Below are positions 1,061 through 62,505 of a stretch of DNA of 64,000 nucleotides, piece after piece; within the stretch, counting starts at the first letter, position 1, and each line of letters starts with the position of its first letter. The translations under genes were made by a program, and so were the position numbers. The notes beneath the pieces were generated by a model that was not told the DNA's origin, searched no databases, and saw only the letters and a list, made by a program, of their open reading frames with translations. The stretch is from assembly GCA_951406725.2 (NCBI GenBank), contig OX597829.1:32364001-32428000 (forward strand), read 5' to 3'. This DNA comes from Octopus vulgaris (lineage: Eukaryota).

Positions 1061-56069
<55,009 letters not shown>

Positions 56070-56097
56070 TAATGCTCATTAAGTGAAACACAGACTA

Positions 56098-56476
56098 TCC
56101 ACTTTCATAGGAGAAGCCACTGGGAAACACCACAACATACAACAAATGTACTCGCCCAGACAGTGCAATGGAAAAAACATACAACATCTAGAGTACTTCT
56201 CTTTCAGACAGACCAACACTGTGGGGGTGGGAACCCTTCCCTCTAACAAAACACACACACACACATATATACAAACACATGGTATCCCTTTTCGGATCAA
56301 TACAGTGGGGGAAAAGAAAATGAATGAAAAACATATACAATACACTTTGTCCACTTTCAGACCAGCCCAGTGGAGGGAGTGGAAGGAAACATTATAACAT
56401 GCAATGTCCATTTCCAGACCAACTAAATAATGGAATGATATAGCTTAAAGAATCCACTTTCAGACTACTTAATGGA
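56098..56476 (+). repeat. degenerate 7-unit TCCACTTTCAGAC...TGGA stem-loop array in the proximal 3' UTR
   Basis: Units start near 56098, 56149, 56197, 56285, 56350, 56407 and 56453. Confidence 0.7.
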
Positions 56477-56774
56477 AAATAAAAGCAAAATTATACACAA
56501 GTATAAATACATACACATAAACACACACAAGTACGGACAATTTATTGAACCAAAATCAGAAAATGAAAAGAAAAAAAAATACTAATAAAAGGATGTTAAG
56601 GAACAAAATCAAATACTCCCATTTTCCCTTTTACAGAACTTTACAAGGAAAATATAAGACTGTTTGTGGAGAGGATAGGGAGGGTGGGTGAGATCTTAAT
56701 AGTAAATATATGTGTGCATGTATGTGATATGTGTGTGTCTGTGTGCATATTTGTGTGTGTGTTACATATATATA

Positions 56775-56815
<41 letters not shown>

Positions 56816-56939
56816 TACACACATAGAGATATATGTATATATGCATATATATATATATATAATATATATCTTTATATATGTATATATATTAATATATATA
56901 TAGTGTGTGTATGTGTGTGCATGTGTATATATATATGTG

Positions 56940-56985
<46 letters not shown>

Positions 56986-58138
56986 CTTGCCAGCCATGTC
57001 ATTGGAATTTAGCTTTGCTTCACTTCTAAAACAAGAATGTTCTTTTTTCCTCTCTTTTTCATATATATATATATATATATGCACACACACACATACACAC
57101 GCATGTATTATATATATGTGCATTTTAATCTGCGTATGTGTAATATATGTGTGTATGTATGTGTATATATAATTATATATATATACATACATACATATGT
57201 GTGTGTATTCTTACATGCATTATATATATGTATGTGTGTATTGTGCATATGTGTGCAGTTTGTATTTGTGTGTATATGTATCTTTACACACACACACACA
57301 CATATCATGTATGCTGATACTTTTTATGAAATCACTTTTAGTGCAATCTTCCAATTTAGCCTCTAACCCCTGGTCCTATTTGATCTTGTTTTATATTTTT
57401 CTGTTGAGCAAGTAAACTAATCGTGTTAAAGACATACATGTAATTCTATTGTTCCAAGAACACATTATATCAATAATAATAATAATAATTATTATTAATA
57501 TTTTTATTATTATTATTATTATTTTCATTGTCCACAGTAAATTTTTTTTGTTGCAAAGATGATGATGATGATGACGATAATGATGATCCTGTTGCCACTA
57601 TTAAATACACAATAATTATGTCATCCATTCACTCCCTCCCACAAATCTAAAAAAAAAAAAAACCTTCTCTCCCTTCAGTATCTTCCCCCATCTAGGAAAT
57701 TAAATAAAAATAAAATAAAATTTTAAAAAAATTTGAAAAGTTAATGAATTATATAATAAAATGTAAACTACACACTAATTCTTGGTCTTTTTCACTACTT
57801 ATGAGGATCATAGAATTGTATTTAGTCATCACAGTTGAAACCCTCATAAATGGAACAAAATCCCGAATTCTGTTTTTTTTTTTTTTTTTTTTTTAATTAT
57901 TATATTTGTAAAAGAAAATGTTTGAAATATTTTTTTTTTTCCATTCTGTACATGTTCTTTCTTCCTAGTGACTAAGGAAGAAACATTGTTGGTTAAAGAG
58001 GAAACTTTTCGACAGAAATTGTTATGGAATAAAAGAGAGAATAAAGAATTAAATAATAAACCAGAGATTACATCAATAATTACTAGAGTTTAAGCGATCA
58101 AAACCAATTTAGGAAAGGGGTTGAATATTCTTACGCGT

Positions 58139-61474: not shown

Positions 61475-62505
61475 CAGACAAAATGCTTAGCAGTATTTGA
61501 TCTGTCTTTATGTTCTGAGTTCAAATTTTGTCAAGATCAGCTTTGCCTTTCATTCTTTTGGAGTCGATAAATTAAGTACCAGTGAAACACTGGAGTTGAT
61601 ATAATCGACTGGTCCCCTCCAGCAAAATTTCAGGTCTTGTGCCTTTAGTAGAAAGGATTCTTCTTATTTAAGAAGGGAGCAAGTTGGCACAATTGGTAGC
61701 AGGCCAGACAAAATGCTGAGCGGTATTTCATACGTTCTGAGTTCAAAATCCACCAAGGTTGACTTTGCTTTCCATCCTTTCAGAATCAGTAAAATAAACC
61801 TTCTAAGCATAGGGGTTGATCTAATCAACTAGTCCCCTCCCCCAAATTTCAGGCCTTGTGCCTAGGGCTTTTAGCAGAATCATTAGAGTGTCAGACTGGC
61901 AGTATTTGTTCTAGTTCTTTATGTTCTGAGTTGAAAACCTGTTGTGGACAATTATGTCTTTCATCCTTTTGGGGTTGATGAAATAAGTACAAGATATGTA
62001 CTGAGATCAATGTAATCAACTAGCCACCTCTCCCCAAATTTCTGGCCTTATTCCTATAGTAGAAAGGATTATTATTATTAAGGTGGTGAACTGCCAAGAT
62101 TGTTAACACATTGGACAAAATACTTAGCCGCATTTTGCCCATCTTTGTGTTCTGAGGTCAAATTCTGCCAGGGTCAACTTTGCCTTTCATCTTCTTGAGG
62201 TCGATAAATTAAGTACCAGTTGAATACTGGGGTCAATGTAATCGACTATGCCCCTTACCCAAATTTCAGGCCTTGTGTCTATAATAGAAAGGATTATTAT
62301 TATTTAAGTAGGTGGTGAGCTGGTTAAATCATTAGCTCACTGGAGAAAATGCTTATTGGCATTTCATCTATCTATATGTGTTGGGTTCAAATTCTGCCAA
62401 GGTCAATTTTGCCTTTCATCCTTTTGGGGTCAATAAAATAAGTACCAGTTAAGCACTGAGGTCGATGTAATCAACTGGATCCTTCCCCCAAATTTCAGGC
62501 CTTGT
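61475..62505 (+). mobile_element. head-to-tail array of 5 SINE copies (about 200 bp each)
   Basis: Five successive gacaaaatgct...ttctgagttcaaat...tttcatcc...aagtaccagt...aatttcaggccttgtg units. Confidence 0.8.

What the first reader, a model, noticed from the sequence alone, without database searches (positions are those of the whole stretch)
56098..56476. Array of seven related stem-loops with compensatory changes just after the stop codon
Seen: a degenerate unit recurs every 45-90 nt: TCCACTTTCAGAC, a short spacer, (A)GTGGA/ATGGA, then an A/C-rich linker (AAACATACAACA). The closing arms co-vary: TCCACT/AGTGGA (56350/56369), TCCATT/AATGGA (56407/56429), TCCC/GGGA (56285/56309), TCCA/TGGA (56453/56473). 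The loop-side TTTCAGAC is largely retained; units 2 and 3 pair weakly. It matches none of the interspersed repeats in this window. Inference: a multivalent 3' UTR cis-element (localisation, translation or stability) on the mRNA of an axonal-transport adaptor.
Basis: partly seen in the sequence, partly recalled or inferred. Interest (0 to 1): 0.72.

Follow-up and report, generated by a model that had tools for sequence, protein, structure and literature searches.

The report
Worn hairpin repeat in JIP3/4 mRNA
Seven worn copies of a roughly 50-letter, partly self-pairing repeat follow the stop codon of an octopus gene for the axonal-transport adaptor JIP3/4; they are likely an old local duplication rather than a selected RNA signal, because the matched changes claimed for their stems are no more than chance would give.

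Summary
The repeat is real: seven related units (56098-56476) start 29 nt after the conserved stop of a JIP3/JIP4 gene. Units 1-3 lie on a spliced contig, units 4-7 on an adjoining contig of like depth. No second array was found in the genome or in 39 other-animal JIP3/4 3' ends; the scan noted no look-alike before.

The compensatory changes do not hold up. In register there is one double change (unit 6), unit 7 has a C.A mismatch at that pair, and unit 4 pairs by slipping along a G-run. Pair retention (33 of 42) fits neutral decay (P 0.12-0.37); arm swapping gives p 0.11-0.20; whole-array folding z is -0.48. The linkers are homologous too, and 3 of 23 other JIP3/4 3' ends carry unrelated repeat arrays.

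Best reading (0.55): a decaying tandem duplication. A multivalent protein-binding hairpin array stays open (0.3): core retention is borderline (24 of 555; 1721 of 6705). Conservation in other cephalopods, the decisive test, could not be run.

The parts
53189..53329 (+). Penultimate coding exon of the JIP3/JIP4-like gene (ends ...[10 protein letters not shown])
   Evidence: Sequence; spliced contig covers it and joins it to the last exon over a GT..AG intron of 2633 nt
55963..56069 (+). Coding part of the last exon, ...[14 protein letters not shown], stop TAA 56067-56069
   Evidence: Translation; same end in proteins named for Octopus vulgaris, O. bimaculoides and Argonauta hians, and the same stop position within a few residues in other animals
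56098..56125 (+). Unit 1: TCCACT arm, loop word changed to CATAG, 5 of 6 pairs in register (one G.U, one C.C break)
   Evidence: on spliced contig
56147..56172 (+). Unit 2: only 2 of 6 pairs in register; an alternative 6-bp hairpin 56147-56167 encloses CAGAC
56197..56235 (+). Unit 3: core with doubled AGAC, 4 of 6 pairs in register, folds otherwise when alone
56285..56312 (+). Unit 4: loop word changed to CGGAT; 6-bp stem by slipped pairing with a G-run
56343..56383 (+). Unit 5: consensus unit, perfect 6-bp stem 56350-56374, 3' arm duplicated 9 nt downstream, extended stem; most stable unit (z -1.65)
56407..56434 (+). Unit 6: perfect 6-bp stem with the single double change (U-A for C-G); z -1.65
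56453..56476 (+). Unit 7: consensus core, 4-bp stem then C.A mismatch, -1.2 kcal/mol; first AATAAA follows at 56478
56126..56452 (+). A/C-rich linkers between units (A+C 0.56-0.87), homologous to each other (AAACATACAACA-like), linker 3 expanded by a CA run
   Evidence: (families D14, D20)

Best explanation
Seven diverged copies of a roughly 50-nt unit (short arm, CAGAC loop word, complementary arm, A/C-rich linker) lie in the proximal 3' UTR of the octopus JIP3/JIP4 transcript, and they likely arose by local tandem duplication of one unit that already happened to be self-complementary and have likely been decaying since, with at most mild constraint on the 13-nt core. Shown: the repeat, its place after the stop, homology of arms and linkers, single locus. 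Inferred: slippage or unequal crossing-over as the origin; hairpins inherited from the founder unit rather than kept by selection; about 0.26-0.37 changes per site per copy since duplication (model-dependent).
For: Whole unit including linkers is repeated. Stem pairs kept, 33 of 42, against a neutral mean of 30.3-31.9 given the same 16 changes, P 0.12, 0.25, 0.37 for three transition biases. Own arms fold no better than swapped arms at p 0.11-0.20 in four settings, 5040 permutations each. One double change, contradicted by unit 7. Whole array z -0.48; 5 of 7 units have z above -0.5. Loop word lost in 2 of 7 units. Core retention reached by 1721 of 6705 loosely matched neutral simulations. Base rate: 3 of 23 clusters of other animals' JIP3/4 3' ends carry an unrelated 4-5 copy array in the first 431 nt, and four stretches of these fold at z -0.34 to -1.93; this genome holds fresh minisatellites with similar words on three other contigs.
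Against: In the better matched simulation the best 13 columns were as conserved in only 24 of 555 runs. No insertion or deletion falls in the 13-nt core of any unit while unit length runs 46-88 nt. All trends lean the functional way: swapped-arm p is lower on the transcribed strand (0.11-0.20) than on the other (0.24-0.48); 5 G.U against 2 A.C. The array lies wholly before the first AATAAA. The neutral models are my own and simple.
Confidence: 0.55

Rival explanations
1. A selected multivalent RNA element: each unit would fold a 4-6 bp stem that displays UUCAGAC in a 12-17 nt loop, spaced by unstructured A/C linkers, and would bind several copies of one protein (or be an m6A site, the AGACH word fitting the recalled DRACH consensus) to control localisation, translation or decay of JIP3/4 mRNA in neurons.
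For: Core retention 24 of 555; arms complementary beyond composition, 4 of 400; 5 of 7 units fold so alone; the A of GAC is predicted unpaired at 0.93-0.99 in units 5-7; in the spliced transcript; transcripts annotated JIP3 and JIP4 are listed in squid giant-axon axoplasm, RPKM 30.8 and 13.1 (PMC5797086 supplement rows).
Against: No significant covariation; all five bases of CAGAC unpaired together only 0.03-0.44 in context; 2 of 7 loops changed; no second array in the genome or in 39 other-animal 3' ends; the axoplasm list holds 7820 genes, so presence there is unselective; no Rfam family reaches its gathering score in 55900-57000.
Confidence: 0.3
2. A cluster of target sites for one cephalopod microRNA whose seed would pair with the CUUUCAG/UUUCAGA word; the hairpins would be incidental.
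For: The best kept part is a 7-8 nt word followed by A; octopus has many novel microRNA families with conserved sites (PMC9699675 passages).
Against: No microRNA with that seed was found; the paper's sequence files could not be read and the readable supplements hold none of six such words, so this is untested. The exact word CTTTCAGA is in only 3 of 7 units (3, 5, 7).
Confidence: 0.06
3. A cluster of alternative 3' splice sites: five units read pyrimidines-CAG|AC and could accept the upstream donor, replacing the conserved C-terminus with short tails.
For: Units 2, 3, 5, 6, 7 look like acceptors.
Against: The contigs run unspliced through the array and none of the 15 joints shown (of 158) enters it; all seven named octopod proteins end at VTCPD; such splicing would drop the conserved ERSHLIVW strand. 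Contigs drop rare forms.
Confidence: 0.03
4. A DNA-level or RNA-level SMAD element: repeated CAGAC words in one orientation, as in CAGA-box enhancers.
For: CAGAC is the SMAD-binding word in DNA and in pri-miRNA stems (PMC3321553 passages); it occurs 7 times in 56091-56465.
Against: A 5-nt word is weak evidence; the RNA form is described in stems whereas here it is predicted in loops; it does not explain the arms.
Confidence: 0.03

Closest known systems
MAT2A 3' UTR hairpins hp1-6 bound and methylated by METTL16 (PMC10578476, passages)
   Same: Several hairpins in one 3' UTR, the first close to the stop codon, each with a repeated loop word containing CAGA
   Different: Defining loop UACAGARAA is absent from all 7 units; MAT2A hairpins are conserved across vertebrates, whereas no conservation is shown here
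Five iron-responsive elements in the TFRC 3' UTR (PMC8058555, passages)
   Same: Multiple hairpins in a 3' UTR as candidate multivalent protein sites
   Different: IREs are bulged hairpins with a short apical CAGUGN loop (loop word recalled, not from a call); here loops are 12-17 nt and CAGUG, where present, lies in the 3' arm
Locus-specific degenerate minisatellite in a 3' UTR (general class, own knowledge)
   Same: Head-to-tail homologous units of 46-88 nt, single locus, slippage in linkers; unrelated arrays after the JIP3/4 stop in 3 of 23 other animals
   Different: Too diverged for Tandem Repeats Finder at score 30; unit is self-complementary and its core is somewhat better kept than the rest
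Hairpin array noted in the octopus Zmast lncRNA
   Same: Same contig, degenerate hairpin units with A-rich linkers and a CCA...TGG outer stem
   Different: Different unit with an inner G/C stem; model R1 finds nothing there at E up to 1; only 2 skeleton matches in 2.1 kb

Membership tests
METTL16/MAT2A hairpin | Loop motif UACAGARAA | tested here: not met
   Motif; loops read UUCAGAC, UCCAGAC, CCCAGAC, UUCGGAU, UUCAUAG in all 7 units
METTL16/MAT2A hairpin | Hairpins clustered in a 3' UTR, first one near the stop | tested here: met
METTL16/MAT2A hairpin | Conservation across the clade | not testable with these tools
   No other cephalopod 3' UTR could be read
Iron-responsive element | C-bulge, 5-bp upper stem, apical CAGUGN loop (recalled) | tested here: not met
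   No IRE family among 43 Rfam matches at E up to 10; loops 12-17 nt
Any Rfam RNA family | Score at or above gathering threshold | tested here: not met
   0 of 43 matches in 55900-57000 reach it; the only one inside the array is SNORA27 at 16 of 64 bits
Selected structured RNA array | Significant covariation between copies | tested here: not met
   seven copies give little power
Selected structured RNA array | Loop word kept better than the rest of the unit | tested here: inconclusive
   24 of 555 against 1721 of 6705
Selected structured RNA array | Present in the mature RNA | tested here: met
   Spliced contig through units 1-3; adjoining contig over units 4-7; one run
Interspersed repeat or genome-wide satellite | Many copies elsewhere in the genome | tested here: not met
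   1 DNA match; 2 and 3 lone unit-like hits, none in an array; searches give lower bounds
Locus-specific minisatellite | Head-to-tail homologous units including spacers at one locus | tested here: met
microRNA response elements | Match to the seed of an expressed microRNA | not testable with these tools
   Octopus microRNA sequences not readable

The most novel reading that the evidence does not exclude
A cephalopod-born, seven-fold hairpin zipcode: duplication built an array that presents UUCAGAC (an m6A-type AGAC word) in loops right behind the stop codon, and a multivalent RNA-binding protein uses it to ship or translate the mRNA of the kinesin/dynein adaptor JIP3/4 in axons, so that the transport adaptor's own message is cargo. 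The gene is probably on the Z chromosome, so the array could also tune its dose.
Probability: 0.25. Interest if true: 0.7.

Novelty: new member of a known kind. Interest (0 to 1): 0.3.

Why it matters
As a worn minisatellite it is ordinary, and a useful warning that duplicating one self-complementary unit mimics covariation. If it proved conserved and functional, it would be a new 3' UTR hairpin array on a core axonal-transport gene in a group whose giant axons allow direct tests of mRNA localisation, with seven natural variants to define the binding rule. Searches that found no description: JIP3, UTR, stem-loop, mRNA localization: 2 papers, listings only; sunday driver, syd, UTR, mRNA: 9 listings; UUUCAGAC: 25 of 59 listings; none was about such an element by title or abstract start.

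Tried and rejected
Runs search: no holder is on record as RNA (no RNA holder listed); 20 rows in 9 studies and four organism codes hold 0.88-0.98 of the words, too close to inform on constraint. Runs X21 and X22 (organisms E, F) hold the orthologous penultimate exon at about 80% but nothing of theirs was laid on the last exon or UTR; since even the coding part failed to lay, this is no evidence of absence; X18 had no cover over the array. Metagenome scan gave 77 loci and no recognisable cephalopod; 39 had a readable stop, 38 were dropped for lack of the last-exon motif. Searching translations of the UTR to reach other cephalopods gave nothing: 0 of 3 candidates, none among 30-56 aa proteins, 2 hits among representatives, the one inspected being an unrelated repeat protein. 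Coding role rejected: spacings are not multiples of three, double stop TAATAA. Two lone pattern hits rejected: one is the centre of a long palindrome, one isolated; satellites on C4, C8 and C24 share words but no arms (33 of 133 matches not listed). Model R1 has only 3 pairs because MAFFT would not put the 3' arms in register; in the genome only 150 of 271,739 candidates were scored. Link to the Zmast array rejected. FMRP (ACUK/WGGA), ZBP1, Nova, NFAT and CSL words were noticed from memory and not tested. Supplement 1 of PMC9699675 (data S1-S4) could not be read and may hold the microRNA seeds and octamer conservation that bear on the microRNA rival.

Full report
Host gene and position. The last exon translates to ...[14 protein letters not shown] and stops at TAA 56067-56069. 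[quoted passage not shown] In run X11 one 1588-nt contig skips a 2633-nt GT..AG intron and runs without a difference to 56238, covering units 1-3; a second contig covers 56282-56720 at like depth (76.8 against 85.8), while intron bins free of repeats have 0-15. The break between them is a CA run that the tool skips. That all seven units share one transcript is therefore shown for 1-3 and inferred for 4-7, from one run whose RNA status is a guess by the tool.

The repeat is real. The 13-nt core occurs five times within two mismatches; 0 of 300 dinucleotide shuffles exceeded three copies, and only 2 of 148 window tiles reached five, both TA-rich. Units are 46-88 nt. The linkers are homologous too, so the duplicated unit is the whole stretch of about 50 nt. 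Tandem Repeats Finder does not see it, and no Rfam family reaches its threshold (0 of 43 matches).

It is confined to this locus, as far as the searches reach. The DNA search gave one match, itself. An arm-loop-arm pattern gave 5 matches, 3 here and 2 lone ones, control 0. A two-core pattern gave 133 matches; the 100 listed are 2 here and three unrelated fresh satellites. A covariance model gave 7 matches at E up to 10, 4 here and 3 lone ones. Of 77 animal JIP3/4 loci from metagenomes, 39 had a readable stop; 0 of 39 carry the core within two mismatches, and the model found nothing in 33 loci searched.

Structure. The arms are complementary beyond composition (4 of 400 shuffles of the 3' side), and units 2, 4, 5, 6 and 7 fold alone into a hairpin round CAGAC. 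But the stems are weak: z is -0.48 for the array and between 1.09 and -1.65 per unit.

Covariation, the centre of the finding, fails. In homologous register 33 of 42 cells pair; there is one double change, in unit 6, and unit 7 carries the 5' arm of unit 5 with the 3' arm of unit 6, giving C.A at that pair; unit 4's TCCC/GGGA arises from a shifted register in a G-run. Neutral change of a founder hairpin with the same 16 differences keeps 33 or more pairs with P 0.12, 0.25 and 0.37. Own arms against all 5040 arm permutations give p 0.11, 0.12, 0.20, 0.14 on the transcribed strand and 0.39, 0.41, 0.48, 0.24 on the other. RNAalifold returns no structure and the pair count is reached by 52 of 500 shuffles, both on an imperfect alignment. 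Seven copies give little power, so this is absence of support, with a mild lean towards the transcribed strand.

Retention of the core is the best argument for selection and is borderline: 24 of 555 matched neutral simulations with indels and duplication trees (of 4146 run, 1122 passing the score filter), but 1721 of 6705 under looser matching. The core has no indel in any unit, yet the loop word is changed in units 1 and 4.

Base rate. Among 23 clusters of other animals' JIP3/4 3' ends, three (L010, L015, L039) have an unrelated array of 4-5 copies in the first 431 nt, beyond 40 shuffles each, and two more have 3 copies; four stretches of the three arrays fold at z -0.34 to -1.93. Local duplication behind this stop codon is thus common and mildly structured by itself. 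The same observation could be read as repeated convergence on an array, but the units share no sequence.

Mechanism. Most likely (0.55) a founder unit that was self-complementary was duplicated in tandem and has since decayed; the hairpins are inherited, not maintained. The rival (0.3) is a multivalent protein-binding or m6A-type element: the A of GAC is predicted unpaired in units 5-7, the array lies before the first AATAAA at 56478, and squid giant-axon axoplasm lists JIP3 and JIP4 transcripts among 7820 genes (PMC5797086, supplement rows and passages). MicroRNA sites, alternative acceptors and SMAD words (PMC3321553 passages) are minor rivals.

Known systems. Architecture resembles the MAT2A hairpins, but the defining UACAGARAA loop (PMC10578476 passages) is absent; it is not an IRE array (PMC8058555 passages; loop word recalled). 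The preprint 10.1101/2024.12.09.627507 (passages) puts Zmast on the Z chromosome, so Z linkage of this gene is inferred. PMC9699675 was seen as passages, its supplement list and part 1 of file 3; its data files could not be read.

What remains open. No other cephalopod 3' UTR could be read, so conservation across octopods, the test that would decide between relic and element, is not done. Verdict: real repeat, unsupported covariation, probably ordinary; interest 0.3.

Noticed in passing
L010:407-540, L015:3270-3410, L039:925-1130: Three other animals have unrelated 4-5 copy repeat arrays within 431 nt of the JIP3/4 stop codon.
   Followed up: partly
   Followed up: partly
L002:1432-1600 (G000:C1): A roughly 170-nt imperfect palindrome, MITE-like, whose centre matches the unit by chance.
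   Followed up: no
G000:C24:31698475-31701783; C8:94187340-94187944; C4:153568258-153577305: Fresh minisatellites of about 35, 22 and 10-13 nt period containing TTTC/TCCAGAC words.
   Followed up: no
protein P0010: An unnamed 1318-aa relative (90% in the queried exon) leaves the conserved C-terminus after VVHSL and ends in an unrelated tail; alternative splicing or an assembly artefact.
   Followed up: no
window 56478-56483 and 56584-56589: AATAAA directly after unit 7 and again 106 nt later; the contig runs on to at least 56720, so these could be minor proximal poly(A) sites.
   Followed up: no
window 56040-56073: A well-predicted hairpin (pair probabilities 0.8-1.0) spans the last codons and the stop codon in local folding.
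   Followed up: no
window 55258-55449 and 61949-62505: Tandem arrays of 66-nt and 229-nt period made of abundant interspersed repeats.
   Followed up: no
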